A stretch of DNA of 64,000 nucleotides, taken from Phoronis australis. Its lineage: Eukaryota > Animalia > Phoronida. A model generated the notes under the pieces. That model was not told where the DNA came from. It saw only the letters and a list, made by a program, of their open reading frames with translations, and made no database searches. Each line of letters opens with the position of its first letter. Position 1 is the first letter of the stretch. The translations under genes and the position numbers were made by a program. Location of the stretch: the NCBI GenBank assembly GCA_002633005.1, contig NMRA01000258.1, forward strand, positions 186,001-250,000, in the 5' to 3' direction. This document shows, in pieces, positions 842-56,743 of the stretch.

Positions 842-887
842 ATGCTTTCATTTCTAGTCTTAGTAATATCTATGCCACAGAACATAG
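842..887 (+). CDS. Gene A start exon, signal peptide ([16 protein letters not shown])
   Basis: ATG 842, hydrophobic stretch, GTAAG donor at 888 in phase 1. Upstream acceptor TGTTCAG at 819 and a short UTR resemble the start exon of gene B. Confidence 0.65.
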
Positions 888-3800
888 GTAAGTTTTCACA
901 AAGAACCAACGTCAATGAGCAAAGCTCAGATTTTTTTATTTATTATGATACAATGCAACAATATGTTTCGTCGATCTTTTTTCGAAACAAATATTGACTT
1001 GAAATCTAATTAAGCAATAGTAAGTTGACCCATATAAGGCTGCTGCTAGAGACGGGCTCCGACAATTTCTGTTCATCCTCGCCCCATGCAGTTTCTTTTT
1101 GAGAAACCATCTGACATAATCCATTCTACAAATGGATGACGTACTACAGAATATCAGGTAGTAAGATGTGGATGAACCGATAGTGAAATCTTTCTTGCTC
1201 ATCAAATATTCTAAATGGCAATACCTTTGCAATTAGTGGAAGTTATTGCCTCTAATTCATTCAGTTTCACCTTTATCGCCACCGTTTGTTTGAACTCATC
1301 TACATTTACAAGTGCGATTAGACATATTGTACTAGCCGAACACAGTTACCCAACCCTTTTGTGTAGAGTAGAAAATCCTTACAAATTATGCTGCACGTTT
1401 AGGGGGCCCTTGCGTTAGCAACTTTTGGAAGGTTTATATTCAAATACTGTAAATTCAAAGTTTTTAAAAATTTTGAAATATTAATCGAATGATTCCAAAA
1501 ATGTTATCGGTATTTTTGTTCTTGTCGACATTTATTCGTCGGTCTGAGAATAACAATTATAAAGGTAAGATATTTTAATCATGTATATTATTGTTCAAAA
1601 ATAATTCATTCTTTGCTTGAAATGTTTTAATTTTGATTGCGCAGGATCAGATAAAAAAGACTCAAATTTAGAGCGTTCTTGGACTGGTAATTGCTTACCT
1701 AATCATGGGCCAATATTTTAAAAGAAATTATTAAATTTATGAATTTTCGACATTTTATTAAATATATGATCTGTTTTGTTATGTATTCTGGCAACTCGGT
1801 AAAGTTGTTGCAATGTTTATATAAAATTGAAACAAAGTGTCAAAGTATGTCTCAGTACATATAATTTATAATAACTTAGGAGTGTTCGTGGTGCAAATGT
1901 TTTGAGAAATCAACAATGATTGATTCATATTGCGTTAACGGTTTCAGATGAAATAAAACTAATTGACCGCCGTGTGAACGCATTTTATTTTAGTGTTTGC
2001 TATCAGAAACTAGTTGTGAAACTATAACTGATTTTATATGCTATGGTCAGATGTTAGAGGAATTTTATGATCATTGTAACTGTACACCTTTTCCCTGTAG
2101 GGTTCTGTGGAAGGGGAACTTTTGCAATTTCGCGGCAAGTTCACCAAAATATTCACGTGCACATTATTTATTTGGTTCCTTAGTCCAGTCCTTTTGCGAC
2201 TGGAGCTTAGTTTTTAACTTTCGCTACAATTATTGTCATTTACGATTACAATACTAATGTATTAGAGATATTGCAAAGGCAGACCTATTGCGTATTCAAT
2301 ATCATTATTCTTGAGGTGCGTCTTGTGGGAATGACAACGACAAAAGCAATGAATGGGCCACTTCTGGAGAATGCGACAAGAACCCTGACTGGATGCACCC
2401 TAACTGTTCACTGGCTTGTGGAAAATGCACATATGAATTTCACTTGCTGTCAGCCTAATTCTGCTGCCAAATATAAATCTTTGAGTTTTCTAATACCAAT
2501 CAGTTTTCATGATTGTGAGATTGTTTGCAAGATCACAACGCAAAAATAAAGGTTCACCTACGCTGCCAAAAGTGATCGCTTTTTGTCACGACATTTGACT
2601 TCCCTACGCTTCTTTAAAGCGACGACGAAACTGTTAACTTAATGGCATCTCGTATGTTTCTCTAGTAAGCGAAGTTGACGATAGCATTTAGACCCAGCGT
2701 CATGTTTTTTACTCAACTGAAGCATATTTATTGCGCATTTTTGTCTTATCTGTTATCAAACATATAATAAAAGCACATGGACAATATCCACAACAACAAT
2801 ATGAAATCATCAGAGAGATTGCAAAGATCTTTATATGTTCTCTTACACGTGTTTAACATTTCATCTTTATTCACTAGATGCGTCTTGTGGGAATAACAAC
2901 GACAACTGCAATAAATGGGCCACCGCTGGAGAATGCGACAAGAACCCTGACTGGATGCATCCTAACTGTGCACTGGCTTGTGGAAAATGCAGTAAGCACA
3001 AAATACGATATGATGTTCCGATTTTACCCCAATTTGAACAATCCTGTAGATTACATGATGCAGGTAACTGCTAGAGCTTGCGCGTGGTCGCTGGCTTCAG
3101 TGATACTTCTGCGAAATATTTTCACTTTTACAACGAAAAAACGCCTATTAAATTTACTTGCTGTCAACCTAATTCTGCTAACAAACATAAATCTTTAGGT
3201 TTTCTAGTACCAATCAGATTTGACGATCTTGAGATCGTTTGCAAGATTGCAATGTAAAATTGAAAGTTAATGTACATCCCGTATGTTTTCGTTCTTGGAA
3301 ACGAATCATCTTCTCTTGTTTATTTGAAGCGCTTTGATACTAGATCTAGGTGTAGTCTTTATGATATGTGACAAACAATTACTGGAGCTTTCATATGGCC
3401 GCTTTTTCAAAGGTTTTCTAAATAAAGTGGCTGGTAGCCAGTATACAAAAGTCACTCCAATATCTTAGATTCTGGGAGGAGCTTCTTCAACTTAATATTA
3501 AGTGGCTGAATTGTTCCAGATTATTTCTTCAGCCAGCTTGAAAGCGTCACATGGCCTAGTTTACCTGGATGATATAATAGAATTAGTTGTCAAACGTGTG
3601 CGTGCATTGTTGACCCCTTTTCAAAGGGATTTGTAAAGCAAATGATTTCTAGCTACATTAAATCACAGCACTACGCTGAGGGTCCGTGCGGTAGAGAGAA
3701 ATTATGTTGACTGATATACAAACTAAAACAAAAATCGTTCTCAAAATCAAATCGTTGCCTACTCTGTTCTTCTTCATATCAATATCGCAGTTAGTAATCT

Positions 3801-12800: not shown

Positions 12801-15800
12801 CGACTGGCGTCATCAAGAGTGAAAATAGAATACTTAAATGAGCACGCGCAATAATCCCATGTTCAACAAACCGCATTGTACTGTACTTATACGCAACGAA
12901 AAATAAGACACATAATTTCCATAAAAATGATATCTTAATCCGGTGAAATTTTTCTCTCATGTCCTCTTACTTGTAAATCACTGATCTCTAGTTTGAATGC
13001 GGGTATCGTGTCGTCAGGATCTTTGACTTGAGAATTATATTCAGTTACCAGTGGTAACCTACTTTAGCAGACGACAATTTCCTGGTCGAAGCTTTGCGTG
13101 AAAAAAACGTGTTTTAAGCTAGTATAATAATTGGTAGACCTTAATTTATAAATTCAATTAATTTCTATAATACTTAAGTTTTCAATTGGTTTTGAGTAAA
13201 AGCATTATTTGGCAAAAATAGCCGGGCTTTTCTTAAAAGGTCACGACCTCCGACCCCGGGCCTCTGACATAGAAAGTAGTTACAAAGCCGTGGAGAGTCA
13301 GAAAAGTTAAATAGATTCATTGCAATGTTTCTCGTTTAGTATGTGGTATAAATAACGCCCCTCGGGCGATAATTCTCCAAAATCCACTAGGGCTCTAGAT
13401 AACGGGGGATAACGACTTCGCCATGTAATTATCTATATTTATGCAATAAAATTCTATGCTAAGGGCTAAAATGAGCTGTCAGTGGAATAAAGTTACAAAT
13501 AATCATTAAAATACTAACTTTAACATTCTCGATTAGTTGAGTTTTGGATTAGAATTATTGAATTAGAAATATAGGTTGCTTGCTCAACTCGAAGTTTCAC
13601 CTACGACAGGCGTACAAGTTGGACCACAACTGAAATCCGCCATGTTTAATATTTTAGGTCCTTGAATTCCGAGTTTTGAGATTGTTTTGGAAATTCGATC
13701 GCCAATTCACCACAAACGAGGACAGTTAATAGGATTTAGGAAAGATAAGGCTTCGAAGTTTATGCAATACCAGACTGAGGGAAGTGCACGCAGATTTTAT
13801 TTGGATTTTGGACAGTTGAAGTTGGGGGCCTCGGCTTGGCAAAGTTTTAGTTTCCAACCTTTATGTTTCTTATATATGGTTATGAGTCATCGGGAAACTC
13901 GAGCGCCTGTGATTGAAAAGTGAGCTCCATTCTAGTTATTCCAAAAACATTTCATTTGACATTTCACGTAATCACGTGTTTCGTCTTCGATTTCTCGTGA
14001 AAGCACCCTTTAGCGTTTTTATTTACTCCTAAGTGATGTAGGCCTGGAAAATCCATATAAAAGTGACGCAGCGGTTTATGGCTCTCAAGCAGTTCCTTAG
14101 ATGTTCCGTTGTCAATTTAATGCCTCTACTGAAAAAAGTGAATTTTTTAATCTTTTACGACTTTTACGTTATCGCATGTAATTTCTTCGCACTCCTGAAA
14201 CAAACTCCAATGGCCTTAAATCGTATCGTGGTACTATTTAAGGTATCTGGCAGTGGTGAGACTTAGCAGCTGTGACGTTATTATATCTGACCGTTATTTA
14301 CGCCTCGTGTGAAGGAAGAAACATTTGAAAAAATGCAAAACATAGAGAGAGTTCAATCTTTCCTAAAATAAAGCTAAGCAACGTCTGTGGACGCTTAGCA
14401 TTACAATCACTTAGTATAGAGACAAAACATTCAGCGGAAGGTATGTTTTTTAAAACCTTTCTTTCATTGAATTAAAATTTTTAAGTCACCTTGTTGTGGA
14501 TGGACTGGATTTCCGCCATTTTTCTCGGTTCGATAACCTCACCTTAATTCCTATAGTGGTCGCTTTACTGCCATGCTTTTCCTGAGTATAATAAGTATTA
14601 CGTTTCGCGGAAAATGCAAAGGCAAGATTTAGTCACTGGTACGGGTTAGGGTCAGGTTTAGTGCCTTCAAGTTATTAATCAGGTGTCTGTAAATGTACAT
14701 TACAGCGTCAAGCAGCTATGGTCAATGGGAAAACGAGTGCTCACCTTGCGCCCACAGGACACGGCCTATATTGTGCAACACTAATTCACAATCCAACGAG
14801 ACCCAGACGTGCGGCAACGATCAGCAGACGTGTTTCTGTCCCACACGTGAATACGTGATGCATTCGCAAGGTTGAAATTTCACAAGAATCATTACATGTC
14901 TTCTAGGCCAAAAACAGCATAATTGGTTATTATGGTCTGTCTGAGACCTGAGCCTTAGTGTTTAACGCACGATCTTATTTCAGCTGGTATCAGGTGATGT
15001 TAAAGTAACCCCACCCATTTCAGCTGGCATCACGTGACTTTTTATTTTTGAAAATATGGTCAAATTTGAAAATACCGTATGACCGCATCCATTTTCAAAA
15101 AAGAACCAATTATACTTATTTGTTGAACCTAACTTTTTACATTATAATCACTGTAATGGGTTTCGGTACAGAGAGGCCTGTGTGACGAAGGGGAGCGTAA
15201 ATTTTTTGAAAAGTGTGGTTGCTTCATAAATCTAGTTCCTTGCGACCAGGAAAGCTGGAGCGCACAAAATCACGAGTTCGTGTTCACTTGTAAAACAGCG
15301 GCCTTTGAAGTGTTTGGTCAGTGAAACTGGAATGGTAAATCTTGATAGAAAATTCGTCCCATGAGCGAAATTCTCTTACCGTAAGTGCCTCGCGAGTGCC
15401 TTTTTGGCGGAAACTACTTATGGTTTACGTGGTCGAGTAAAACATTGATGGCACGGCATGGTGTGTATGTTGATGCCGACGTCGGCGAAGTGATATTTTC
15501 AAGGCTCAGTTGAGTGGCTCTGGTAAGTAGAGTTATTAGTCCCTACATTTGCAGAGCTGCATTTCATCCTGTTAAGTTAGCTAAAAAACGAAAATCGAAT
15601 TACACTTTTTATCCCTCATAAAATATGTCTTACCGTGGTCGCTAACAATTACAACATTGAATCCATCAGCGACTCAAAAAATCGCCTTAGACATTATTGG
15701 TTCTGCCAAGCCCTGAAATGGCGATTTCGAAAAATGCGCAAACAGGCATTGCCTATGGCTTGAGTTGGTAACAAAAATGGAATCTTATAACGTAAGGAAT

Positions 15801-18800
15801 TTTGTGAGACCGATTTTATAAGAGTAGAACAATCAATTTGATTTTCGTTTGTACCCAGCTAAACATGGCGAATGCAGTTTTACGTATAGTTTAGGCCGCG
15901 ATACTCGCGTGTGAAACCTGATGAAATCACGTTTTTCTCTCCTTACGCATGGCGACGCAACGTCAAGACAGGATCCAGCCAAACTTGAATTCAGATTCCG
16001 TCTTTTTCTCGGACCCTGCATCCACATCATCCTGGGTCTCATTTGTAACATGCTTAAACTATTTCTTTCTAGGTGTAGAAGGTTGTGATCAGATGGAGTT
16101 CCTTCAAATATTTTCTGTTTTCAAACGTGAAATATCAGGTCACACCATCAGTATTAACTCAATGTCCAGTGGATGGCAGTGTGCAGTGCAGTGCTTCAGT
16201 GATTCTTCTTGCAAATCTGCTGATTTCACAAAACTCGATCAACACACTGGAAGTTGTCACTTTAAAAACATATCGTGGGACACTACTAAAGGTGACATCA
16301 GGAATCTACAAACTATTTCGTCCCATGCCACTCGACACATGGAGATAAGGTGTTTCAGTGAGTAGTGATAGTTATTTTCATCTTGATTTTTACGACGAAA
16401 TTTTGCTTTTAAGAGCATCCTCAAGCAAATTTGTACGTTCGAAAATTCCGGGAAGTTTCCGAAGCACCAGATTAAGACTTTTCATTTCGTTTCCCTGGTA
16501 ACATAGTTATTGTGATGTTACTTTCCATCCACGAATTTTCGTGTTTTTCCTAAACCAAGTGTACCTTTCAATTTGAAATTTTAACTACCATAAGAATCAT
16601 TAAAATGAATACAACTCCTAATAGTGATATGCTTGGTTTTGATTCTAAAGTGAGGCCGAACTATTATGTTTCCTGTTGTTATTCCGAGTGTTCTCAACTA
16701 GGGCATTTGGGCAATGAATTGCTAATTACTTGGTGTTACAATAAACATAAAATCCCATACACTTCACCAAAAACTCGCTTTTATCGCCAAACCCCGTTCT
16801 TGGATCAAAACCTTGACACATAACATCTGCCCAAGATGGCCGGTTGTTTGTATACAATCCCCCTAATTTAGGTTCTGTGAATTGAGCATTAGACTTGAAA
16901 TCCGCAGTTGACATTAAATGAAGTATGATCTTGTGTAGTAAACAGAATATCACTTCATGCAACATATTGGCGCAAAATTGATCGATAGCTATTCAAACTG
17001 AGCCACAGTGCTCAGACCAACACGGCAAGGAATTTTACTACACGTTTTGTCTATGAAACGCAGATCCATACGACTGCAAGACGAGCGAGAAGGGAGAAGA
17101 CTACAGCGGCACCATACGGTCTACACTTTCGGGTATCAGTTGTCAGCGGTGGGACTCACAAAGTCCACATACACATACAGCGACGCATCTCGGACCGGAG
17201 GAAAACTTTTGTCGAAACGTAACTCCAGATGTAGATCCGTATCCCTGGTGTTATACCGTTGACAATAGCAAACGCTTCGAGACCTGTGACGTTCCGTTTT
17301 GCCCTGGAGATAAAGGTAAAAACCATCCGTTCTGGTAATTCTTTCCAATATGGACGTCATTCGCATGTCTTCCCTATGAAATTTTTTAGAATTCTTGAGA
17401 TTTTTCTTTCAACGGAGCCCTTGTACTTCGGAAGCCTTGTCCATGTAAGTGCGACTTTCAGATGTGAGCAAAGCAGTCTGCAATAAGTTAAACTACGTAA
17501 TGTTTGGTTTTGTTGGGTTTCAGGAACGTTCCTTTGTCCTCCTGGATGGTACGGCATTACATCGAAATGTTACACGTTCTTTAACGAAGAGCATAACTTG
17601 TATCGTTATGATGACGTTGTCGACTACTGCAATCAGAGAAATGGATATGTCCTTACGATGAAGACACTCGAGAAATCGCTGGAAGTGGCGACACTTCTAA
17701 CGAGGTGATGTGGTAGCTTTTTTGAAAAGATGTTTCCACTGTACTTATTTGTCAAAACGAAAATCTTGAACTAGGCCCCACAATAAAGTACGTTTGAAAC
17801 CTTTAAGTACCATGTTAGCGACGACCTTCAGTTTATTGGTAAGTAAAAAAGTGTTATCAAGCCATCACTACTAACAGGGTTTGCCAACTCAACAAAAGAC
17901 CTAAACCAGGTGTTGATTGAAGTAAAATTAGAAAATCAAGTAATGAGATTTTCTCTTATTGCATCCGTCCCCACAGAATTTTTATGTTCACAATAGCTAT
18001 TTTCGAAATAACTGCGCCATATTCAAATTCACTATCCTGTCGGACAGTGGCCAAGTCTTTGGTGGAGAGACGTTAAGCGCCATCTGCTTATCCCATGTAA
18101 TACGTATGGGAGTTTTCAACATACTGGTATCAACTGCATTTTAACACATTTTCTCCTACCCTAAAAGAGGCGAATTTTCATGGATATGCAGTGGGATGTA
18201 TTTTAAGGTTACCGTAAAAGGCAGGCCTCTTGAAACGTCCATGGATGAAGGGCATCATATGCCCTATTCATTCATAATTGCGAAGAAGAATAGGCGGCTG
18301 CAGTCATTAGCTGCGACTCACGAAAAGGAAAAAATTCGATCCCTGTCGGTGTCAAAACTTTCAAATATTGAATTAGCGAACTTGACGTAATCAAACAACG
18401 GTAGAAGTTGACGCTGGGATTTTGACACTGATTTTCTATTAATATGGGAAGGCTTAAAACAATTTAAATTAATTCACCATTATATAGTTGTGAATTTCTG
18501 TACACGGTCGAATTTGAGTTGGGTTCAAGCTGGAGTCGCTTTCTCGCTCTCATTACTCAGGAGAGCACCACTATGATGAAAAGGCCTCTCTTGATTGTAG
18601 TTTCTATATCAGCAGCCGCGTGTGTTAAGAAAAAGGCGCCTTGGGGGTACGTTGGCCTGTGTGAACCTGTCGTGTTTCCAAATTACTTTACCGGAACATT
18701 CTATTACGCATGCGTTTGCTTGTAACTTCGTGGCTCCGTCAGCCAGGTATATTGCTCCAGGTTGACAACCCATAGCCGTGAGGAAGTTATATTGGTAAAT

Positions 18801-33411: not shown

Positions 33412-34230
33412 ACAGTTTACAAATTCCAACTTTGTCGCTTAAGAAGCTATCATGGTGCACATATACAAATGGTCAAAAAGGTTTGTGGGGCAGCCAGCCC
33501 TGCGTTTCGCGGAGAAGAGAACCCTGTGAAAACACAAGATTTCGCGAGATATCGCCATATATTATAAGCGAAGCACACTAGCTTCAATAGCGAGGTGCTA
33601 GCGTCTATGATAAACAGATCACCACCCATGACTGAAACAATACGTGATTTGCACTCGCACGTGCTCCCCATAGCTCAGGTTCGTAAGATAAAAGCCCTTC
33701 TAATCCAGAACCTGGAAAGTGTTTGACCCTCCAAAGAGCGCTGCTCGGGATGACCATTATCCTACAATCCATTGTGAATTTGATGTCTCTCGCTCTCGTG
33801 AAAATGTGAATTGGCAAACTCGAAATTCACTAGGGGCACTTAGCGAAACAAGGATTCTTCTCGCAGCAAATTTAAAATGCACTCATTCAGGTAGTCATGA
33901 GGCACTCAGTGTACACTTGCAAAGTGGCCGACTAAGCTACTGTGGTTCGTCGAAGCTGATGAATTAATGGAGAAAAATGTACGTAAACACAGTGTTCAGT
34001 TCACCATTCAATCCATAAGACATTGCTATCACACTTCTGCTCGTGAATTTCAAAGAACACCACGTACATTCCATTGTCTCTTTACACAAAAGCTATATTT
34101 AGTCTGTTACCCAGTCACGCCAACACATGTATTGCAATGATATTGAGTACTCAATGAACATTTCTATGATGGGTTAGTGTAAATATGGCGTGATAGTAGA
34201 TGCAAGGAAGCAAATTAGCGATAATAAGGA

Positions 34231-34358
34231 TACGTAGGTCCTTACATACGTAGGTCCTTACATACGTAGGTCCTTACATACGTAGGTCCTTACATACGTA
34301 GGTCCTTACATACGTAGGTCCTTATATACGTAGGTCCTTACATACGTAGGTCCTTACA
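34231..34358. repeat. Tandem repeat (TACGTAGGTCCTTACA) x8
   Basis: Eight near-perfect 16 bp units with no spacers. Confidence 0.95.
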
Positions 34359-36853: not shown

Positions 36854-37215
36854 TTATACTTCTGTGTTTTCACGACAGAAAGGACTGTCCGACCATGCAG
36901 TTATAGTTAATTGTGTTCTTGTGGGATTCGACAATGATGAAACCTTTTTCGTCAGTTTAAACTTGAGCTGCCGTTTGTTCTTGTTAGATTTTCGGTTGAG
37001 TTTTCTCTTGCCTGCACGGACATTTTTTCTCATAGTTTGCAAATGTTTACCGAGAGTGCCAAGATCCGAGAATACAATGAATCCAATGATGGAGACGAAT
37101 ATCATAACGGGAACAAAGCTGACAACTGCCGCTGCAGGAGCCTCAAGTGGCTCCCGTTGTGGCTTCTTAAAAACGGGCCCATACACCTTGGGTGGGCGTC
37201 TCCTTCTTGGACTCG
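36854..37215 (-). CDS. Gene B terminal exon: PRRRRPPK linker, TM, basic tail
   Basis: TTTTCAG acceptor; [15 protein letters not shown]...EAPAAAVVSFVPVMIFVSIIGFIVFSDL...RENTEV stop. Confidence 0.9.
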
Positions 37216-40200: not shown

Positions 40201-43200
40201 ATATTCAAATGTTTTGCCATTTGTTGACTAGTTTTCACCGTGATGGGAGTTGTTCGTGAAGAACTCGTGTGTTGTCTGATTGACGTTTGTTTAATACTTG
40301 ATGGTGGTGTTTGTGTTGCTGTTGTTGGTGGTATTGTTGTTGGTGGTGTTGTTGTCGGTGGTGGTGTTGTTGGGTATGGTGTTGTTGTCGGTGTTGTTGT
40401 TGGTGGTGGTCTTGTTGTTGTTGGTGGTGGGGGTGTTGTTGTTGGTGTTGTTGTTGTTGGTGGTGGTGGTGGTGGNNNNNNNNNNNNNNNNNNNNNNNNN
40501 NNNNNNNNNNNNNNNNNNNNNNNNNNNNNNNNNNNNNNNNNNNNNNNNNNNNNNNNNNNNNNNNNNNNNNNNNNNNNNNNNNNNNNNNNNNNNNNNNNNN
40601 NNNNNNNNNNNNNNNNNNNNNNNNNNNNNNNNNNNNNNNNNNNNNNNNNNNNNNNNNNNNNNNNNNNNNNNNNNNNNNNNNNNNNNNNNNNNNNNNNNNN
40701 NNNNNNNNNNNNNNNNNNNNNNNNNNNNNNNNNNNNNNNNNNNNNNNNNNNNNNNNNNNNNNNNNNNNNNNNNNNNNNNNNNNNNNNNNNNNNNNNNNNN
40801 NNNNNNNNNNNNNNNNNNNNNNNNNNNNNNNNNNNNNNNNNNNNNNNNNNNNNNNNNNNNNNNNNNNNNNNNNNNNNNNNNNNNNNNNNNNNNNNNNNNN
40901 NNNNNNNNNNNNNNNNNNNNNNNNNNNNNNNNNNNNNNNNNNNNNNNNNNNNNNNNNNNNNNNNNNNNNNNNNNNNNNNNNNNNNNNNNNNNNNNNNNNN
41001 NNNNNNNNNNNNNNNNNNNNNNNNNNNNNNNNNNNNNNNNNNNNNNNNNNNNNNNNNNNNNNNNNNNNNNNNNNNNNNNNNNNNNNNNNNNNNNNNNNNN
41101 NNNNNNNNNNNNNNNNNNNNNNNNNNNNNNNNNNNNNNNNNNNNNNNNNNNNNNNNNNNNNNNNNNNNNNNNNNNNNNNNNNNNNNNNNNNNNNNNNNNN
41201 NNNNNNNNNNNNNNNNNNNNNNNNNNNNNNNNNNNNNNNNNNNNNNNNNNNNNNNNNNNNNNNNNNNNNNNNNNNNNNNNNNNNNNNNNNNNNNNNNNNN
41301 NNNNNNNNNNNNNNNNNNNNNNNNNNNNNNNNNNNNNNNNNNNNNNNNNNNNNNNNNNNNNNNNNNNNNNNNNNNNNNNNNNNGGTGTTGTTGGTGGTGT
41401 TGTTGGTGGTGGTGTTGTTGTTGGTGGTGGTGTTGTTGGTGTTGTTGTTGGTGGTGGTGTTGTTGTTGGTGGTGCTCCTGTCGTTGTTATTGGTGGTGGT
41501 GTTGATGATTGTGGTGGTGGTGTTGTCGATGGGTCAGGTTCTCCCGCCGTAGGAATGCATTTACTCCCTCCTTTTCTTATTTTTTTCACATCTTGAAATT
41601 CAGAAAAACTTCATGACATCGTACACACGTTTGATTTAAAGTACAAAAGCAAATGGCAGTTACAGATACAAACAATGAATTATCATGAAACATTCAACAT
41701 GCAGGGTTTTAATGACCACCGCAGTTTAAACTGTTTACGAGTCCAGTGAATGCAAGCACCTTATTTAGTGGCCTCCATTCTAACTCGTATGTCAAATATC
41801 AGGCTCTGTCGAATAGTAAAATCATATTGACGATGATGGTTTTGGGCCAAATTAGTAATAAGAAACGCTGCACAATTTTTGTCAGCATTGAGTATTTACA
41901 TTATAACCTTTCGATGAAAATCACCTTACCATTCTCAAAGAAAATATCCAGCCACCACAAGTATGGTCACAACACGCTGAATGGCAGTCTGGGGTCGGTT
42001 GAGCTCAACCTTTGGGGATAGCTTTGACTGTTTTACAAGTGAGATTTGGTTTAACTGTTCGTGTCACTTGTGACCATGCTTGTTGTGGTAGGATATTTTC
42101 CTTGAGAATGGTAAAGTGATTTTCATCGAAACGTTGGAATTCATAAATATGTAAATGCACAATGATGACAATAAATGTGCTGAGTTTCTTGTTAAAAGTT
42201 TACATTTTTTGAAAAAAAATCAGGAATTATAAAATGTGTTTTATAGACCTATTGATGTGTTCTCATTATTTTTATGCATTAACACTTTCTTAAGTCAAAA
42301 TGTCATTTTTAAGAAAGGTACATTCATACAGTCCCCTGCGTCGATTTTAATGAAACCTTTTCAAATGAAAACTTCAACAGTTACCTCAAAAAATGGTGTT
42401 AGGAATTTTCGATTCGTCTTATAGTTAGCCTGAGGCGAATTAATTAATCACAAGAGCATGGTGTCTATGATGTAAAGCGGCAGATTCTGTGGTGCGCAAA
42501 CAGATCAAGTTGCCCAATCTCGATTGGGTACGATGTCAACGTAAGATTCTTCTCCACATCCAACAACGAGATAGGACGGAAGTAACCAATCTTCACTGAG
42601 CCTTTGTCTTTTGGAATGTACAGCCCTTCCGCCTTTCCCCATCTCCAAGGCAACTCCTTAGAGCGCCAAATCACTCTCATCAGTCTCCAAAGGCGGTGTA
42701 ATAACCTTGGGCACTTCTTATACACGATTTACGGTTGCACGGATGGGCCTGGAGCTGATTTCGACTTGGTGTTCATGACCACCTCCTTGCTATCAAAGAA
42801 CTTAAAATCACCAACCTCCAAAGGTACCTTGGAAATTCCTCTTCATTAATCCACTCAAAATCTCCCAAAGGTTCCTCGCATCGAGTGGCAATGTGAACCT
42901 CCTCCAGATGTCTCTCCTTAGAGCAGCTCAGCTACCCACTTGCCCGTTTCCCAAAAAGCTCCTTCGTGAACTTGTTTGGATTGGACAAAAATTTCTTCCT
43001 CTTCCGGATCTTTTCGAACTTCCTCTTTCTCAGCTGCTCTGCCTTGCTCAAAGATAAAAGTTTACACCTGATCTCCTGTCTTAAATGGGCCAAGCCTCTC
43101 CTCTCATGACCCTCAGCTGTCTTACACTGCCTCTTAAGGTCTCTCAGCTCCACCCATATCTCCGTAATTTCCCTCTCTGTCTTCTGCTAGGCCCTTGCAC

Positions 43201-46200: not shown

Positions 46201-47156
46201 TACCACCTACTAAGCGTTGCCGCTGGAGACACTTCGTCTTTCCCTGATGGATTCTTACCGCTTGAAATTCTTAAGTGTCCTCTCACATCCCCTGAATTCT
46301 CGGTCATCGTTTATCAATGTCGTAGTCCTTGTACTTTGCCGTGTCGTCTTCGTAATAGTCTTGTTGTTTAATGCTGTAGTTCCTGTAACTTACTGAGTTG
46401 ATTCCGTAGTATTCTGATCGTTGAGTTCTTCATCCTAGCCCTCTCGGAGAACTCTGGTTACTTGTAGCAATATAAATGTCAACTGGATGGGCTGCTAACC
46501 CAACCAATCCACTGTCTCTCCAGATTGTCACCCGTCTCTCCAGGTCGCCACTCGTCTCTCCAGGTCGTCACTTGCCTTTCCAGGTTGTCTTCCAGCCTTT
46601 TCCTGGATGTCATTGGACCTTTTTCAGACGTTGAATTACCTTAAATACAGTTGTTGTGTGCTGAATCTCCAAGTGTTTTCATTAGCTAGAATGCATCCTT
46701 ATCGATATTTCGACCCCTAATCTAGAATCATCGATAACTTTAGTCACACTTTCACTACCGCTTCCGGCTTTTTGTTCGCTTCGGCAAATTGACTTAATTT
46801 GAACAAGGAACACGAGTTCTTAAAAACGGTTCAGTAAGATTTCACCGAAACTTTACAATTTTAATATTTATGCGCCAATCTTAAAAACGGTATTAGGATT
46901 TTCGTTTAAACTCCTAGTCTTTGCGTACCATGAAACAGACGAAAACGACTGCAAATTTTTACAAAAATGCCTTACGTTTTGCGAGTTAATTTGGCATATA
47001 AACTTAATTAAAGTAAATAATCAAAAATTCCTAACAGAATTTTTGAAGTAAATTGCGAAGCTTTCCTTTAAAAACGTTTCATTAAAATCGACCGAAGCTT
47101 TATTTTGCTTTGAATGTACCTTTCCAACAATGAAATTATGACTTAAAAGTGATAAC

Positions 47157-47195
<39 letters not shown>

Positions 47196-50100
47196 TTTCT
47201 TTCAGAAAATATATACTATTACTGGTTGATATATCCTGTTTCTTTTTGATATATGAGTAAGAATGGAGGTCACTAACTAAGCTTTACGACAACTTTAAGG
47301 TACAAGGAGCTACTACGCCTTACCTTTTCTAGTTCTTTCACAAACAATACCATATGACCCGTTAGAAGAAATTAAGCTCCGTGTCAGATTACCTGACTGG
47401 CTAAAGACAACATGTGACCGCTTGACATTGTCGCCACCGCGTTCTTCCTGTACTAACTCCAGCCAAAACTCGTCTACCATGTTACCTGTATTATACCTAT
47501 CAATTTAAAGAAAGACCCTAGTGTTAACATTAGCTAATGAAGGCACCACGTACGTACAAAACAGATGAATATTACAAGAGTCCTTAAAGCATGAGAAAAA
47601 AGTGTATAACGCACTTTATGACACCCGCTGCAGTCTTCCAAGGGTACAGTCCTTCCGTAACTGCACGTTTCATATAGCGGTTTCATTCTTCCTGAGAAAG
47701 GGATCATATTGAACAGCCATCTCACGACGATCCTCGGCACTTGCTCTTGTAACCAACCAATGTACAGCACAGTCGTTAACCGGTTGGTACCCGTGTGGTT
47801 GAGGCAACATGAATGAATTGAAACCTCGCTACATCGGTTAGAAGTCGAAACTAAACTAAATATATGAATCCATTGGTGAGTCTATTCGATGGTCAGCTTA
47901 CTGATTTGTACAAAACTGGCCGATAGTTTGCGTCCATGATCCACACTCTGACTTGCCCTAGAACAACTTGCACAACTGCAGCTTGCCCCACCTTAAGGGG
48001 AGCACCCCCACACACATATATCAGATATTAATTAGCGCAAGGGGAAAGTTGTCACTCTCTACATGTCAATGGAACCGCTAATGCGAATCCCACTTGAAAA
48101 AAGAAGACCCATACGATAATGTATGTAACCGCAGTTGATAAAATACTTTCGCCTTGCGTCAGGTTTGCAGCCACGAAGCGAATAGGGGTAGCGCAAGTTT
48201 TCCTTGCAAGTTACCCTACCTCGACAAGGTGGAGTGTGTATACTCGGTTCGGAAAGTTTGATGGGTCTCTGTGGCTTGTTTTTATTTAGTCGTTGCAGTC
48301 CAGAGTAGATAACTAACGAATGAAGGAACCTCTTCTGTGATACCAATCAGGAATGCACCCTAGCTCACTCGCTTTACGTACAAAAGATGTCCTGCACTTT
48401 TAAAATATTTTGAAGCTATAAGCTTGCCTTGAATCATAAGAAGCAACTGTGGGCTTAGACCATCAGTCTCAAATTGTTCCTTAGTCAAAATTGAAGTGTC
48501 TTTTGTACTTGGTAAGAGCTTACAATCGACGATACTTGCAACCAGGCGCTAACATTTTACTTGAGTCAGGGCGTGTCATTATATTATCCGAGCAATAACG
48601 AACTGGCAGTTCCTTGCAAGAACACAAATCACTTCTCATTTGAATAAACTAGACCAACCTACAGCGGCAAAGGGTCTTAATTAAAAGTTTCTTCGACGCA
48701 ACGTGGGTTTATAACCGTTCTTTAAAGTGTTGTGGGCAAGTTATCTGCTCAATCCAATGGGGATTCACGTGACTGATTCAAAAAATTACCGAGCCAGAAG
48801 GAACTTGAAACTGATTTACCTTTCCAATAGATGTTGAAATTCAACACATTCTTGGGGTTCTTTCAGTGTAAGAACGCGCCCTTTTCTCTGATTGCAGAAG
48901 TTACTGACTTGTGTGTAATTATATGTTTCCACTGTCAGTGAATTAGTGTTGTACAACCAATAACACTTCGAAAACGATGTGTGTGTGTACCAGCCCGGTG
49001 GGCAAGGGCCGTCATCACTGGAATCTGCAAAAGTTCAATGCCTCGGTGAAGTTTGAGTTGAAAAGTTTCGGCAAATATGTTCGCTAATGTTATGGTACCG
49101 AATGCTACATTAGGGTAAGTCGTCTTGCTACTATTGTAAGGGCACACATACATCCTGGATCTCGACCGGTCATTATTGATGTTAACAAACGTCTAGTAGT
49201 TCAAACCTTATTTAGGGGCCTCCATTTTTACTCTTATATCAAAAAGCAGATTCTGTCAACAAGTAAAAGAAAAAGGATCAGAGATTTTAAAATGTTTTTA
49301 TATTTATATTTATATGGCATTATAATGATGACATTAATACCTTTTTTAAGTCAAAATTTTATTTTAAGGAAACTTCATACCAAAATAACCCCTCCGTCTA
49401 TTTCAATGAAACCTTTTTAATGAAAACTTCACCAGTTACCTAAAAGAGGTGTAAGGAATTTTCGATCATTCTTTTAATTTGGTTACTATGACAAATCAAA
49501 TCGCAAAACGTAAGGTATTTTCTTGTAAAAAATAACAGTCGTTTTTGTCTTTGTTACCTTATGCAAAAAGTAGGCCTTCGTATCAAAAATCCTAATAGTG
49601 TCTATGCGATTGATGAATAAATATTAATTTTGGAAAGTTTCAGTGAAATCCACAGAACAGTTTTTGAGAATTTCTGTTCCTAAGTTCAAATTAACACGAT
49701 TTCACGAAGCCGAAAAAAGATATTTCGGGACATATTCCGAACATAAAAGATGATAAAAGTTGTGACACATGAATCTCAAGTCTGCGGTAAATTATTCGGT
49801 GAAAACTTGTTTTCGGTTAATATAACCTATACATGTTCGCTATTTCAATATTCACTCGGAATGTCAACTGAATTTTAAGTACATAATTCACTTAATCATC
49901 GCCAAAACGTTTAATTTTGTCACCATCAACAGTCCGTCAGGAAGAGTCAGCTGTTGACTTACGCGCCGGGTGCTTGATATGACAAACCATGGAAGTACGA
50001 AATGGACAAAGGAAATCGAGTTGGTGGCTAAATGGCGTCGTGAGCATGAGATAGAAACAGCGAAATGTCAAGCTAATGTATTTGGGTGAGGATTTTTCTC

Positions 50101-53100: not shown

Positions 53101-56100
53101 TACTAGTGGAAAGAGGTCGCCACACAACTATTCCCTATGAAAACAGGTTGTGTGAGTTATGTAATTAATTATTTGGGATGTGTAGAGGACCAATACCATC
53201 TTGTGTTAGATTGTAGTGCGTACTAAGACCTTCGGGTTAAGTACTTAAGTGGTCGTTTTTGTCATTCCCCTACTACATCTAAATGTGAATGCATGAGAAC
53301 TCCGGATATATTAATTCTAAAATTTCTTCCATCGTGCTCTCAAGCGTCACAGTTTATTATCCAGTTTTTAACGCACCTGCCAATGTTTTGTCTTGGCTTT
53401 GGGCCTATGGCCATATGTATATATTTCAATAAAAATCGCTAAATCCTCACCCAAATTCCTTAATCTTAATTCGATAGGTACATGTACTTTGACATTTCGC
53501 TGTTTCTATCTCATGCTAAGGACGTGCTTTAACCACAGGCTCGATTTCTCTTATCCATTTCAAGGTACCTAAACTACACAGTCAATGGACTCCTAAACAC
53601 GGCCAAAAACGGACGCAAACGCATTTCTTACTTCGTGTCTTATCAGTCTCTCGGCGCGTGGTGTGCATATAGCTCATTGGTATAATAATGAACTTAAAAG
53701 TAGGTCATACGTCTTGGCTGGGGATGGCAAAAAGAAGTAAAGTTTGAACCATGATTAAGTTAATTACCCACTGCAAATTCAGTTGAAATTGCGAGTGAAT
53801 ATTGAAATAGCTAACATGGTTAAGGCATGTATAGGAAATATTGACCGAAAACAAATTTTCAAAGGATAATTAACCGGGCTTTGAGATTTTCACTCGCCCC
53901 AGTTTAATCGGCTCTTTTCCGGCTTCGGCAAATCGACTTTTTTAGAATTTAGGAACACGAGTTCTCGTAAACAGCTTGGTGAATTTTGCTGAAACTTTCC
54001 AACTTTTAAAATATTTATTCATCAATCTCAAAAACATCTAATTTTTGCGTAATGTAACAAAAACGAATATGACTTCTATTTTTAACAAAAATACATAACG
54101 TTTTTCCAGTTGATTTGTCATAGAAACCAAAAGAAAAGACCAATCGAAAATTCCCAACGGAGTTTTTGAGGCAACAGGTGAAGTTTTTTGGTGAATACTA
54201 TATCTAACTCAAATGCAAAATACGAGTAAACATATTCCGTTTACAGCACCTTAATAAATTTACATCAAAATTAAATACAATATTTGCCCAAACTTGGAGC
54301 GTAAGTTTTATCATTTTTAATGAAAAAGACATCGGTTAAGATAAAAAATTAGGAGGGTTTTTGATTTTAAAATGCACTCTAGCAGTTAAGCTTCCAATCA
54401 ACGGTTTGTGTCAGATGCAGGTGACATGGGCTGTCTTCACATGTCCAACATCATACATGTCCAACATCATACATGTCCAACATCATACATGTCCGACATC
54501 ATTCTCATTTGCCTCGTCTGATTCAATAAAAAGTTACAAAAGAAATGGGAACTCAAAACGTCAAAACTAGCGAAATGGTTTATCTGTGTTTAAGTCGAAA
54601 TAAGCGTTAGAATTTCTGTTGAACTCACTTAAACATTGTATTTCCAAATGTTGCATTGACTGGTTTTGCCGTAGATCATCGATTCCAATCCCATCACTGT
54701 CCCACTTCTTGCTTTTCATCCAGCATCTCTTCGTCTGCCTGTGATAATCGGCAGACGAACATGGCTTGCTCTGGTGACACAACTGGGCGCAGTGTACAGG
54801 ACAGTTCGCACTAGATACATGTTCATCTACATTGTGGCCGCGTAGCTCGTGTTCAAAAAGTTTGTAGACTTGAAAGTTATAGGGATGTTCACAAACCTGT
54901 GTTCCTGAAAAAACAAAGCATGCCTGGTGACCATGCGCTGTTTCAATCTTGAAGACTCAGAAGCAGTGGTCATGAATAAGCCCTTTTCATATGATAAAGG
55001 ATAGGGTTTCGTAATACTAGTTTTACAACGGCAAGTAGACTTAATCAAAAGATTTTTTGGCAGAAGACATGTTTATACAACTTTTATCCACCTGAAGCTG
55101 GGTATCAAAGTTATGGGGTTTGAGTACAGTACCAGAGCTGCTTTTCGAGAAAAGCTGTATCACACAAGTCCTCGCGAGATGTAGCCATGCCTTAAAAGGG
55201 AAGCACGTGATCACGGTAGTTTCACTGGTGAATTTCTCGCTTCTATGGAACGTACATGTAACTCGTATAATTTGTGTAATGACATGAAAGGAAAGGAGTA
55301 TTATTTTTTTCTTTTTCTCCGAAATGCATTGAGCATTAGACACATGTTGTCGTTCTATAATAACTAAGAATCGGCACCGAAGTGGTAAAACCCTACTTTA
55401 AAAACTGAAACGTGTATGAAACGAAAAACACAATGGAATGAGGCAAAAATAAGATAAAATATGCTGGTGAGTTATTGGAACATATGGAACCAAAAACAAA
55501 CATTTGTCTAGATCAACCAGTTACCAAAAAAACCATTGACATTTCTGGATCCGGCGCGACTGTGCACCGCAGTAGCTCGGAGGCCATTTAACTTGGTTGC
55601 CGTAAGCTTAGCGAGTACAGAGGGGTCAACGTTCTGACAATTAATATATTAGATGCATCGAACTGAGTGATTTTAAAATTGCAGCTGACAACGAGTGCAC
55701 ACCAGAAATCAACCCTTGCAATCTGTTGAGTTTAGGCAGTATTTGTTGAAAAGATCATTGACACGTATTCATGAACTTCTTGGATTTGTCCGGATAACTT
55801 TCATCAGCCGGACCAGGAGATGGGGATAGATTGTTATTAAGAAAGCATTGTTGATGAAGGGGGACTTATTTGTAGGAAACTCAATCAGACTGTCGGAGGT
55901 ATGAATTTTTGATGACCGTGCACACTGAACCTGTGTAATAGGTTAAAGTGCTCATCGTGTTCTGGCCATCGTTAACAAAGATATAAATTTGTGATCTTCG
56001 GGATGCACGCTTAACTTAGGCCACTGCGGGAACGAACAAGAATTCATGAATAACTAGTTTCTGAAAATTTCTTGGAGGAAGCCCCTGACACCCGACCCCC

Positions 56101-56743
56101 GCATAATGCCCCGCTTCAATTATTGCTCTCCAGGATGCCTCATGTCATGTTCCTGCGTCCATGGTTCAGTTCAAGAATATATTGCCTACAGATTCCATAC
56201 CGTGTTTTACGGATATCAAAAGTGTTGTAACAAGAGTGATAATGGTATTGGGTTCATCGTTTTGAGTTTAGATGCTTAATATACATCTACGAGAATCGAC
56301 TGTTACCTAATCTAGTAAGAAATCGTTTTAATGAGCTTAGACGCAAGCTGAACTTTTGGGTGGTTCTATCATCCGAATCCTAAATTGCAACAACTAATTT
56401 TTAATACGTAACGTGCTCAGGTCGAAAAGGTATCATTCTCGTGGAATTTTATTGAAATACCGGTACTCACGTTTCTGATGGCTTTCTCCCCAAACAAGAA
56501 ACTCCGCATGCCTATGATGGTTATGGGGGTTGCGTGGTGCAGGGTAAGAAATTGATTAGGGGTCAACTTGATTAGTTGGTACTCCCCGCCCCGCTTTCCT
56601 ACGAGCCTGTTCAGTACAAAGTACTTGATACGTATAAATCCTCCAAAAACACCACTGCCCCCGAAGTTACCTGGTAACCGATACTCTTCGTCCTTTGAAA
56701 CAACGGTAAGTGGTAAGATGGCGAAGAAATACGGAACCAACAT
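36854..56743 (-). CDS. Gene B: paralogous mosaic type-I membrane protein (SP-PAN-short CTLD-mucin-sushi-like-TM-tail ending TEV), roughly 1000 aa
   Basis: Exons 56743-56671, 54904-54629, 49024-48820, 47496-47324, 41591-39776 (contains a gap), 38095-37904, 37215-36854. Canonical splice sites, the same intron phases as gene A, and exon-by-exon homology. Confidence 0.85.
37904..38095 (-). CDS. Gene B exon, juxtamembrane Cys module (sushi/CCP-like)
   Basis: 192 nt, phase 1-1, TTYVSCVGN...VVFGCSHTRADKGFIWWNYFCI|GTAAG. Confidence 0.88.
39776..41591 (-). CDS. Gene B exon, Pro/Thr mucin stalk spanning assembly gap 40476-41383
   Basis: TTTCAAG acceptor; TTTPPP repeats on both sides of the gap; ends EEPCTKD-G|GTAAG like gene A's HEPCTQQ. 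Confidence 0.8.
41860..42190. mobile_element. MITE-like inverted repeat
   Basis: TTTCGATGAAAATCAC.TTACCATTCTCAA.GAAAATATCC and its reverse complement at ~42090-42131. Confidence 0.6.
42551..43937 (-). mobile_element. Near-identical duplicate of the HERO-like retrotransposon fragment
   Basis: Matches 45041-46436 almost base for base; ends at a single N (43938). Confidence 0.8.
44790..46640 (-). mobile_element. Non-LTR retrotransposon 5' part (RT of restriction-endonuclease type, HERO-like), decayed and lacking the 3' end
   Basis: SAPGPS, YKKCPRLLHRLWRLLRVIW, WGKAEGLYIPK, FRPISLLDVEGKVLFAVLADRLT, YINPSVQK, GCLEH motifs; upstream ~20 bp CTCTCCAGGT repeats; frameshifts. Confidence 0.8.
47160..47195. 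repeat. (TAA)n microsatellite
   Basis: Direct observation. Confidence 0.95.
47324..47496 (-). CDS. Gene B exon, shortened CTLD C-half
   Basis: TAG acceptor, phase 2 to 1, RYNTGNMVDEFWLELVQEERGGDNVKRSHVVFSQSGNLTRSLISSNGSYGIVCERTRK-G|GTAAG. Confidence 0.82.
48820..49024 (-). CDS. Gene B exon, CTLD N-half
   Basis: TTTTGCAG acceptor; PCPPGWYTHTSFSKCYWLY...FCNQRKGRVLTLKE...LLER; phase 1 to 2. Confidence 0.9.
52192..52755 (-). mobile_element. LINE apurinic-type endonuclease fragment
   Basis: GYCWYGHNR...RGSGG...CCYLPPENS...ICGDFNLRVG...NSHGRSLIDF...VNGR...GRAVVDY. Confidence 0.85.
52760..53433 (+). mobile_element. LINE ORF2 C-terminus and 3' end (L2/CR1/Daphne-like)
   Basis: QRVNDCYLQGW...LENYL...RLRCSNHSLLVERGRH...RLCELC...VEDQYHLVLDC; ends at AATAAAAA. 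Confidence 0.8.
54438..54500. repeat. Tandem repeat (ACATGTCCAACATCAT) x~4
   Basis: Direct observation. Confidence 0.9.
54629..54904 (-). CDS. Gene B exon, PAN/apple domain
   Basis: TTTTCAG acceptor, 276 nt, phase 1-1, CEHPYNFQVYKLFEHELRGHNV...CAQLCHQSKPCSSADY...RCWMKSKKWD...HLEIQCL|GTGAGT. Confidence 0.9.
56671..56743 (-). CDS. Gene B start exon, signal peptide (MLVPYFFAILPLTVVSKDEEYRLP-G)
   Basis: ATG 56743, hydrophobic h-region, CAG|GTAACT donor in phase 1; upstream TGTTCAG acceptor at ~56781. Confidence 0.75.

What the first reader, a model, noticed from the sequence alone, without database searches (positions are those of the whole stretch)
842..56743. Convergent paralog pair of mosaic surface receptors with a shared membrane-proximal core and different ectodomain modules
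Seen in sequence: two genes lie tail-to-tail, 3.4 kb apart, and share exon-by-exon homology. Both have PAN, a split CTLD with the same phase-2 intron, a mucin ending EPCT, a 192-nt Cys exon with DKGFIWW..FC, and [13 protein letters not shown]...EAPAA.VV...GFIVF.DL. Gene A also carries ShKT, TSP1-like, kringle and WSC exons, all phase 1-1 and so gainable or losable in frame. Established: PAN+kringle occurs in plasminogen/HGF, kringle+WSC in Kremen, and WSC+CTLD in polycystin-1, but I recognise no named protein with this whole architecture. Inference: an undescribed invertebrate family of mucin-stalked recognition or adhesion receptors (immune, mucosal or gamete surface), diversified by exon shuffling.
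Basis: partly seen in the sequence, partly recalled or inferred. Interest (0 to 1): 0.85.

Follow-up and report, generated by a model that had tools for sequence, protein, structure and literature searches.

The report
Paired mosaic mucin-stalk surface proteins
Two neighbouring, anciently duplicated genes of an invertebrate animal share a membrane anchor and a predicted sugar-coated stalk but differ in their plug-in binding modules, and they likely act as cell-coat adhesion or tethering proteins, an unnamed combination of ordinary parts.

Summary
The gene pair is real. Two convergent genes (stops 3,442 bp apart) share PAN, a phase-2-split C-type-lectin-like domain, a mucin stalk, a 192-nt Cys exon and a transmembrane exon. 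All six shared ectodomain/TM pieces beat shuffles (z 3.6-33) and synonymous sites are at or near saturation, so the duplication is old. Gene A adds kringle and WSC exons (both pass Pfam, phase 1-1); its PAN-kringle junction has 5 RNA reads. Corrections: the TSP1-like exon has no Pfam, PDB or read support; ShK and TSP are not shown to join PAN; a second ShK copy is a probable pseudo-exon; B's lectin domain is shortened. Neither lectin-like domain keeps the sugar/calcium motifs, and the tails have no tyrosine signalling motif but are basic, B ending in a PDZ-type TEV. Best reading: non-enzymatic type I glycocalyx adhesion/tethering proteins, working like CD93/CD248 or LET-653 without belonging to either family. 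No relative of the anchor was found, but the sensitive profile search never ran and no genome was held, so 'family' rests on two genes. Module shuffling of this kind is well known in marine invertebrates: a new variant of modest interest.

The parts
842..887 (+). Gene A exon 1, predicted signal peptide (phase 0->1)
   Evidence: Strong GTAAGT donor; 11-residue hydropathy 2.66; link to the PAN exon not tested by reads
2316..2429 (+). Duplicate ShK-like copy, probable pseudo-exon: no GT donor at the homologous place, 5 of 6 Cys
   Evidence: 89.9% identical to 2863-2991; donors; Pfam ShK 24.6 bits
2878..2991 (+). Gene A ShK-like (six-Cys) exon, phase 1-1
   Evidence: Pfam PF01549 34.1 bits, cut-off 20.9; best PDB hit 2mcr, E 6e-4; not tested by reads
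14706..14846 (+). Candidate TSP1-like exon, phase 1-1, unconfirmed
   Evidence: Pattern in 0 of 300 resampled introns (post hoc); no Pfam, PDB or profile hit; zero depth in 4 of 4 runs
15949..16072 (+). Open frame from an ATG running into the PAN exon; possible alternative 5' end or unspliced intron
   Evidence: 49 open codons upstream, chance about 11% for 42; X2 depth 1.65 and 1.1 over 15810-16059; weak hydropathy 1.65
16073..16357 (+). Gene A PAN/apple exon, phase 1-1
   Evidence: Pfam PAN_1 22.2 bits, cut-off 21.4; donor confirmed by 5 junction reads
17064..17315 (+). Gene A kringle exon, phase 1-1, six Cys
   Evidence: Pfam 73.8 bits; aligns to plasminogen kringles; acceptor confirmed by 5 junction reads
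17524..17704 (+). Gene A CTLD first half, phase 1->2
   Evidence: Pfam UL45 lectin-like 21 bits, below cut-off 27; 46% identical to B; low read depth
20482..20726 (+). Gene A CTLD second half, phase 2->1; no EPN/QPD/WND
   Evidence: Pfam Lectin_C 21.0 bits, cut-off 22.6; PDB mannose receptor 2 E 7e-6; motifs
21636..21869 (+). Gene A WSC exon, phase 1-1
   Evidence: Pfam WSC 32.6 bits, cut-off 27.8
29403..30551 (+). Gene A mucin stalk exon (375 aa measured, 43% Ser/Thr), ends EPCT
   Evidence: X1 depth 2.28 in bin 29884-30524
31672..31863 (+). Gene A 192-nt three-Cys juxtamembrane exon, predicted all-beta, no family assigned
   Evidence: 41% identical to B, z 23.4; model pLDDT 61.7; fold searches inconclusive
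32741..33411 (+). Gene A last exon: polybasic R-X-R/K-R sites, single TM helix ending in Asp, amphipathic helix, 173-aa basic tail ending PVV
36854..37215 (-). Gene B last exon: RRRR site, TM helix ending in Asp, amphipathic helix, 70-aa basic tail ending TEV
   Evidence: 56% identical to A over 68 aa, z 33
37904..38095 (-). Gene B 192-nt three-Cys exon, phase 1-1
39776..41591 (-). Gene B mucin exon (Thr/Pro repeats) with a 908-N gap at 40476-41383, ends EPCT
47324..47496 (-). Gene B CTLD second half, phase 2->1, shortened to 57 aa (long-loop region missing)
   Evidence: z 4.0; no Pfam family
48820..49024 (-). Gene B CTLD first half, phase 1->2
   Evidence: tblastn E 9e-12 to A
54629..54904 (-). 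Gene B PAN/apple exon, phase 1-1
   Evidence: Pfam PAN_1 30.0 bits; 28% identical to A, z 17.6
56671..56743 (-). Gene B exon 1, predicted signal peptide (phase 0->1)
   Evidence: 11-residue hydropathy 2.25

Best explanation
Two old paralogous genes encode predicted single-pass, non-enzymatic membrane glycoproteins that likely work as glycocalyx adhesion or tethering proteins: a mucin stalk would hold protein- or matrix-binding modules away from the cell, a basic tail would tie them to the cortex, and a polybasic site would allow shedding. Shown: exon structure, domain identities, paralogy, purifying selection on the anchor, and splicing of PAN to kringle in A. Inferred: type I topology; O-glycosylated extended stalk; PAN, kringle, WSC and the sugar-motif-less CTLD bind proteins or matrix rather than acting as a classical calcium lectin; the basic amphipathic juxtamembrane segment binds ERM-type adaptors or acidic lipid and B's terminal TEV binds a PDZ scaffold; a proprotein convertase may cut at R-X-R/K-R next to the membrane. 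The paralogs diverged by in-frame gain or loss of phase 1-1 exons; the direction is unknown.
For: Open models with a signal peptide and one TM helix. Pfam passes for ShK, PAN, kringle, WSC and no catalytic family among the 17 exon pieces scanned. pS 0.67-0.83 against pN 0.27-0.49 in the six shared pieces, lowest pN in the TM exon. CTLDs have 4 and 5 Cys and no EPN, QPD or WND. Tails: 40 K/R of 173 and 18 of about 70 residues, 0 ITIM and 0 YxxPhi motifs, B has no Tyr and ends TEV. R-X-R/K-R occurs 3 times in A and once in B before the TM helix. Analogues: CD93 binds moesin through a basic juxtamembrane region and also GIPC (PMC6852297, passages); LET-653 PAN domains anchor it to luminal matrix and it is cut at a furin-type site (PMC4970718, PMC7665627, passages). 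PAN-kringle junction: 5 reads.
Against: No binding, localisation or tissue data. Expression is very low in X1 and X2 and absent from the exon bins in X3. Only 1 of A's 10 junctions is listed with reads, and B was not tested. The conserved RRRR is followed by Pro, which is recalled to disfavour furin cleavage. PDZ and ERM motifs are short and common. WSC, kringle and ShK can also serve in defence (PMC7333891, PMC10140915, passages). The ShK-TSP head may not belong to the main transcript.
Confidence: 0.5

Rival explanations
1. Pattern-recognition receptors of innate immunity: the variable modules would bind microbes or parasites, and clustering with module exchange would diversify recognition.
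For: WSC plus CTLD architectures in bivalves are proposed as immune (PMC10140915, passages). Clusters of single-pass genes map to parasite resistance in a snail (PMC13712769, sections 20, 29 and part 1 of 30 read). A has four or five binding modules.
Against: No EPN/QPD/WND and no tyrosine motif. Duplication is old and the ectodomains are conserved (PAN z 17.6, CTLD1 46% identity), unlike a young hypervariable array. Only two copies lie in the window.
Confidence: 0.22
2. The usual gene A transcript starts just upstream of the PAN exon, so A and B both begin with PAN; the ShK and TSP-like exons belong to a rarer long isoform, a separate gene, or (TSP) to nothing. This is a rival to the gene model, compatible with any function.
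For: Zero depth on the TSP exon in 4 of 4 runs, while X2 has depth 1.65 and 1.1 over 15810-16059 and the other intron bins 16435-17059 and 17685-18300 are empty. An ATG opens a frame into PAN. TSP has weak splice scores.
Against: The upstream depth is one or two fragments in one run and partly overlaps a repeat. The extension is a poor signal peptide (1.65 against 2.66) and such an open frame arises about 11% of the time. The intact ShK exon has a phase-1 donor, and my phase 1-1 scan listed no other strong exon between it and PAN (that scan also missed most of the modelled exons).
Confidence: 0.3
3. Signalling co-receptor or membrane-tethered ligand: PAN plus kringle would act like the NK1 head of HGF or the lysine-binding kringles of plasminogen, or kringle plus WSC like Kremen, capturing a protease or morphogen at the surface.
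For: PAN directly precedes kringle and the junction is spliced. The kringle keeps all six Cys and the two Asp, Trp, Arg and aromatic residues seen in plasminogen kringle 1 (alignment; their role in lysine binding is recalled).
Against: B has no kringle or WSC, so this cannot be the shared function. No CUB or protease family among the exons scanned. A CTLD separates kringle from WSC.
Confidence: 0.13
4. Gamete-surface or egg-coat recognition proteins.
For: CTLD, mucin and furin-type sites occur in gamete-coat proteins (recalled). Low expression in the three runs would fit a restricted tissue.
Against: No ZP, REJ or PKD family among the exons. Conserved rather than fast-evolving modules. Tissue of the runs is not given.
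Confidence: 0.1
5. Artefact: unrelated exon-like fragments strung together, or pseudogenes.
For: Introns are filled with transposons; most junctions are untested.
Against: Collinear exons with matching phases and equal 192-nt length in both genes, no stop in 1,169 codons, saturated pS with low pN, and a spliced junction.
Confidence: 0.03

Closest known systems
CTLD group 14 proteins (thrombomodulin, CD93, CD248, CLEC14A)
   Same: Signal peptide, CTLD, mucin-like stalk, one TM helix, basic juxtamembrane tail, shedding (PMC6852297, passages)
   Different: Group 14 has an N-terminal eight-Cys CTLD, then sushi and EGF repeats. Here PAN comes first, the CTLD has 4 or 5 Cys, no EGF was found, and a three-Cys exon lies between stalk and membrane.
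C. elegans LET-653 and other PAN-mucin-ZP apical matrix proteins
   Same: PAN, Pro/Thr/Ser-rich region and a furin-type R-X-R/K-R site near the C-terminus (PMC4970718, PMC7665627, passages)
   Different: No ZP family hit; the Cys exon is 63 aa. These genes have a CTLD and a TM helix, which LET-653 lacks.
Kremen 1/2
   Same: Type I membrane protein with kringle and WSC (PMC3927609, passages)
   Different: No CUB; a CTLD separates kringle and WSC; PAN and mucin are added; gene B has neither module.
Plasminogen / HGF / MSP
   Same: PAN followed directly by a six-Cys kringle in gene A
   Different: One kringle, no serine-protease domain, membrane-anchored.
Mosaic invertebrate proteins with kringle, CTLD, ShK or WSC (limpet P-vulgata_14; amphioxus kringle-CTLD proteins such as P0003 and P0090; SRCR families with kringle and WSC partners)
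   Same: Same pool of shuffled extracellular modules (PMC7333891, PMC10855680, passages; 11 of 119 kringle relatives list a CTLD)
   Different: None of the 119 shares the Cys exon or TM cassette (best local E 0.16 and 0.66) or lists WSC.

Membership tests
CTLD group 14 | N-terminal CTLD with eight conserved Cys | tested here: not met
   CTLD follows PAN (and kringle); 4 Cys in A, 5 in B
CTLD group 14 | EGF repeats after the CTLD | tested here: not met
   No EGF family in the 17 exon pieces or 19 further ORFs; introns were not scanned exhaustively
CTLD group 14 | Mucin-like stalk, single TM helix, cytoplasmic tail | tested here: met
Kremen | Kringle and WSC present | tested here: met
   Gene A only, not adjacent; absent from B
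Kremen | CUB domain before the TM helix | tested here: not met
   No CUB in the exon pieces
Plasminogen/HGF family | PAN followed by kringle | tested here: met
   Gene A; spliced junction
Plasminogen/HGF family | C-terminal trypsin-like domain, secreted | tested here: not met
   No protease family; TM helix present
PAN-mucin-ZP proteins (LET-653 type) | PAN, mucin region and R-X-R/K-R cleavage site | tested here: met
PAN-mucin-ZP proteins (LET-653 type) | ZP domain | tested here: not met
   No ZP family in the exon pieces; only a 63-aa exon lies between stalk and cleavage site
Calcium-dependent sugar-binding C-type lectins | EPN or QPD plus WND motifs and the inner disulfide (features recalled) | tested here: not met
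   None of the motifs in either gene; Cys of the inner pair replaced in the alignment to mannose receptor 2; B lacks the long loop
TSP1 repeat (exon 14706-14846) | W/C/R pattern with six Cys recognised by profile or fold | tested here: inconclusive
   Pattern by eye, 0 of 300 resamples; no profile hit; model pLDDT 57, best Z 2.4
ShK / SXC domain | Six-Cys ShK profile match | tested here: met
   34.1 bits against cut-off 20.9
ShK channel toxins | Free peptide carrying the Lys-Tyr functional dyad | tested here: not met
   The exon has no Tyr and is a phase 1-1 module; dyad-less ShK domains in mucins are described in PMC7333891 (passages)
Sushi/CCP module (EPC plus the three-Cys exon) | Four Cys in C1-C3, C2-C4 pairing with Trp before the last Cys (recalled) | tested here: inconclusive
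   Four Cys and a Trp are present across two exons; no Pfam or PDB hit for the exon alone; best fold Z 3.7, rmsd 2.2, 50 aligned
Polycystin-1 / REJ | PKD, REJ, GPS and multi-pass membrane region (recalled) | tested here: not met
   No such family; one TM helix
A wider family defined by the Cys exon plus TM cassette | Further members in this genome or other species | tested here: inconclusive
   Word-seeded searches scored 0 of 143 and 0 of 2,274 candidates (weak by the tool's own statement); no genome; profile and Atlas searches did not run

The most novel reading that the evidence does not exclude
The most conserved part (Cys module, polybasic site, V.GPVF strand, EAPAA, TM helix ending in Asp, amphipathic helix) is an unrecognised, portable membrane-anchoring and processing cassette. 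It would define a large invertebrate superfamily of mucin-stalked proteins onto which PAN, lectin-like, kringle, WSC and ShK heads are shuffled, cut at the basic site and held or released much as ZP proteins are by their cleavage site and hydrophobic patch.
Probability: 0.25. Interest if true: 0.62.

Novelty: new variant of a known kind. Interest (0 to 1): 0.36.

Why it matters
The pair is a clean two-gene example of an ectodomain changing by whole phase 1-1 exons on a fixed stalk and anchor. The anchor, not the binding heads, is the most conserved part and has no Pfam model, so it gives a handle for collecting unnamed 'mucin-like' invertebrate proteins into a family. If the cassette is a processing or sorting signal it would explain how such coats are shed. 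As it stands the parts and the shuffling mechanism are known, and function is untested.

Tried and rejected
Family search: word-seeded searches with the TM exon and the A+B alignment scored no candidate; weak evidence only. The metagenome scan gave 2 loci of 258 pattern matches; both are the antisense frame of a bacterial transporter-like gene beside a regulator-like gene (names from my reading of the ORFs) and were rejected. Profiles of the TM and Cys exons found nothing in the 119 stored kringle proteins or in PDB sequences beyond weak hydrophobic matches. The 1.84-billion-protein profile search and the ESM Atlas gave no answer, so breadth of the family stays open. Fold searches of the Cys-exon model: no Foldseek match at E 0.001, best Z 3.7 among generic beta-sandwiches; no sushi or ZP chain was listed, which excludes neither. 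TSP-exon model: best Z 2.4. Co-folding the Cys exon with the first 32 residues of the last exon gave 'no answer'. WSC and B's PAN had no PDB sequence hit. RNA: no indexed RNA holder listed; the 19-kb lay was swamped by intronic transposon reads, 15 joints shown, all in repeats, 111 hidden. ORF 15157-15321 was considered as an extra exon and dropped: no Pfam family, zero depth in bin 15185-15309. The single N at 43938 was considered as hiding a WSC exon of B and rejected as unlikely: both sides repeat the same 1,396-bp and 433-bp sequences (97.9% and 94.9%), as expected of two haplotypes set in tandem. Ten paper searches listed no description of this architecture; the library lacks most subscription journals and no supplements were opened, where domain tables of lectin surveys could hold such proteins. 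Earlier-findings look-ups by sequence, place and words found no look-alike.


Full report
Setting. The window is animal DNA of about 40% GC with transposon-filled introns and four N runs. The phylum was not resolved: the kringle's relatives come from amphioxus, bivalves, an annelid and vertebrates, the top rows at about 43-55% identity. A marine invertebrate is my inference.

Gene models. Gene A (+) has 11 modelled exons from 842 to 33411 and reads 1,169 codons without a stop; all introns are GT-AG. The order is signal peptide, ShK, TSP-like, PAN, kringle, CTLD in two exons split in phase 2, WSC, mucin, a 192-nt three-Cys exon, and the TM/tail exon. Every module outside the CTLD split is phase 1-1. 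Gene B (-) runs from 56743 to 36854: signal peptide, PAN, CTLD in two exons with the same phase-2 split, mucin with a 908-N gap, the 192-nt exon and the TM/tail exon. B's second CTLD exon (47496-47324) is 57 aa against 81 aa in A and has lost the long-loop region. The stop codons are 3,442 bp apart.

Domains. Of 17 exon pieces scanned, 6 pass a Pfam cut-off: two ShK copies, both PAN exons, kringle and WSC. A's CTLD halves fall below cut-off (Lectin_C 21.0 against 22.6; UL45 21 against 27), but the second half matches mannose-receptor CTLDs in the PDB at E 7e-6. B's CTLD halves have no Pfam hit and rest on homology to A. The TSP-like exon, the Cys exons and the TM exons have no credible family.

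Paralogy. All six shared pieces beat 1,000 shuffles: PAN z 17.6, CTLD1 21.6, CTLD2 4.0, mucin end 3.6, Cys exon 23.4, first 68 residues of the TM exon 33.0. Signal peptides and distal tails do not. Identity is highest at the membrane (56%), then CTLD1 (46%), Cys exon (41%), PAN (28%). pS is 0.67-0.83, at or near saturation, and pN 0.27-0.49. The duplication is therefore old and the anchor is under purifying selection. B holds no kringle, WSC or ShK remnant in six frames read through stops, and the scaffold join at 43938 looks like two overlapping haplotypes rather than missing sequence. With two genes, gain in A cannot be told from loss in B.

RNA. No indexed RNA holder was listed; three raw-read runs and one contig set with the same species label were offered. 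About 18-19% of each raw run was read. On 14500-33700 the tables were filled by transposon reads; exon bins had low depth on first-mate-minus (for X1: CTLD2 0.48, WSC 0.49, mucin 2.28) and the PAN-kringle intron bin had none. On 14560-18300 the junction 16357->17064 (GT..AG) was read 2 times in X1 and 3 times in X2, all first-mate-minus, as expected for a + strand RNA in most stranded libraries. The five intron bins between PAN and kringle and the five bins from 17685 on were empty in 4 of 4 runs. The kringle-CTLD1 joint was not listed (the tool needs 3 reads). The TSP exon had zero depth in 4 of 4 runs, and X2 had depth 1.65 and 1.1 over 15810-16059, upstream of the PAN acceptor, about one or two fragments.

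The 5' head of gene A. The intact ShK exon (2878-2991) follows a good signal-peptide exon and has a phase-1 donor. A second copy (2316-2429) lacks the donor and one Cys and is probably a pseudo-exon. The ShK module has no Tyr and so no toxin dyad; such domains occur in mucins and mucus proteins (PMC7333891, passages). The TSP-like exon has a suggestive residue order (0 of 300 resampled introns, pattern fitted after the fact), but six Cys in 46 residues is expected 1.18 times per resampled intron, and no profile, fold or read supports it. An ATG at 15949 opens a frame into PAN with a weak hydrophobic stretch. I put about 30% on a PAN-first main transcript.

How it likely works. Shown: no catalytic family among the exons scanned; CTLDs without EPN, QPD or WND and with 4 and 5 Cys; 375 stalk residues with 43% Ser/Thr in A; R-X-R/K-R motifs before the TM helix (three in A, one in B); a conserved Asp closing the helix; an amphipathic helix after it (hydrophobic moment 1.07 and 1.19); very basic tails without ITIM or YxxPhi; C-termini PVV and TEV. 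Inferred: type I glycoproteins whose stalk lifts protein- or matrix-binding heads through the glycocalyx and whose tails bind cortical adaptors. CD93 binds moesin through a basic juxtamembrane region and also GIPC (PMC6852297, passages). LET-653 uses PAN domains to hold on to luminal matrix and is cut at a furin-type site (PMC4970718, PMC7665627, passages). That TEV is a class I PDZ ligand, and that Pro after RRRR disfavours furin, are recalled. A's kringle keeps the residues seen at the lysine-binding site of plasminogen kringle 1 (alignment; role recalled), so A may add a protease- or ligand-capturing function that B lacks.

The juxtamembrane module. The Cys exon folds as four beta-strands at low confidence (pLDDT 61.7) and matches nothing clearly. 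With the Cys of EPC in the previous exon it has four Cys and a late Trp, like a divergent sushi module (pattern recalled, untested). The order basic site, short V.GPVF strand, TM helix recalls the cleavage site and hydrophobic patch of ZP proteins (layout from PMC7665627; the likeness of the strand is recalled), but there is no ZP domain. I also recall similar TM cassettes in uncharacterised proteins of molluscs, annelids and hemichordates; no call here supports that, and the two word-seeded searches found none.

Comparison with known systems. It works like CTLD group 14 proteins or PAN-mucin matrix proteins but fails defining features of group 14, Kremen (PMC3927609, passages), plasminogen/HGF, ZP proteins and polycystin-1. 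Among 119 kringle relatives, 18 list PAN, 11 list a CTLD, none lists both, none lists WSC, and none shares the anchor; that search examined only 124 candidates. Ten paper searches listed no description of the architecture. Of the papers, I saw passages of PMC7333891, PMC13619432, bioRxiv 2022.04.26.489627, PMC3927609, PMC10855680, PMC6852297, PMC10140915, PMC4970718 and PMC7665627, and the abstract and sections 20, 29 and the first part of 30 of PMC13712769; no supplement was opened. These show that kringle, WSC, CTLD and ShK are commonly recombined in marine invertebrates.

Verdict. Observation largely right, with corrections at the 5' head of A and in B's CTLD. The architecture seems unnamed, but it is a new arrangement of common modules by a known mechanism. 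The part worth following is the conserved anchor cassette, whose spread could not be measured here. Interest 0.36.

Noticed in passing
window 3836-7101: A 3.3-kb palindrome-like element in gene A's second intron; both arms match a single copy at 23602-25183 (79-82%), and that family is abundant in the RNA runs.
   Followed up: partly
window 19155-20082: THAP-domain transposon fragment with an N gap inside gene A's CTLD intron (Pfam THAP 23.5 bits, just under cut-off 23.9); depth 50-190 in the raw RNA runs, mostly from other copies.
   Followed up: partly
window 10842-13877 and 26756-28455: Nested inverted-repeat elements shared between two introns of gene A.
   Followed up: no
window 42119-46436: Tandem repeat of 1,396 bp and 433 bp around a single N at 43938, probably two haplotypes of a decayed retroelement placed in tandem by the assembly (retroelement label from my reading).
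   Followed up: yes
window 52195-52608: Endonuclease fragment of a LINE-type element in gene B's PAN-CTLD intron (Exo_endo_phos_2, 22.2 bits, below cut-off).
   Followed up: partly
window 40476-41383: The 908-N gap in B's Thr/Pro repeat shifts the frame, so its size is only an estimate and B's stalk length is unknown.
   Followed up: yes
window 15157-15321: Cys-rich open frame between the TSP-like and PAN exons; no Pfam family, no reads, acceptor in phase 0.
   Followed up: yes
window 34230-34358: Eight copies of a 16-bp unit between the two stop codons, just before the first AATAAA downstream of gene A at 34405.
   Followed up: no
window 21237-21564: 25/50-bp tandem array directly upstream of the WSC exon.
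   Followed up: no
L001 6391-7848 and L002 1007-1576: The PRRRRPPKV motif occurs by chance in the antisense frame of a bacterial transporter-like gene; not relatives.
   Followed up: yes
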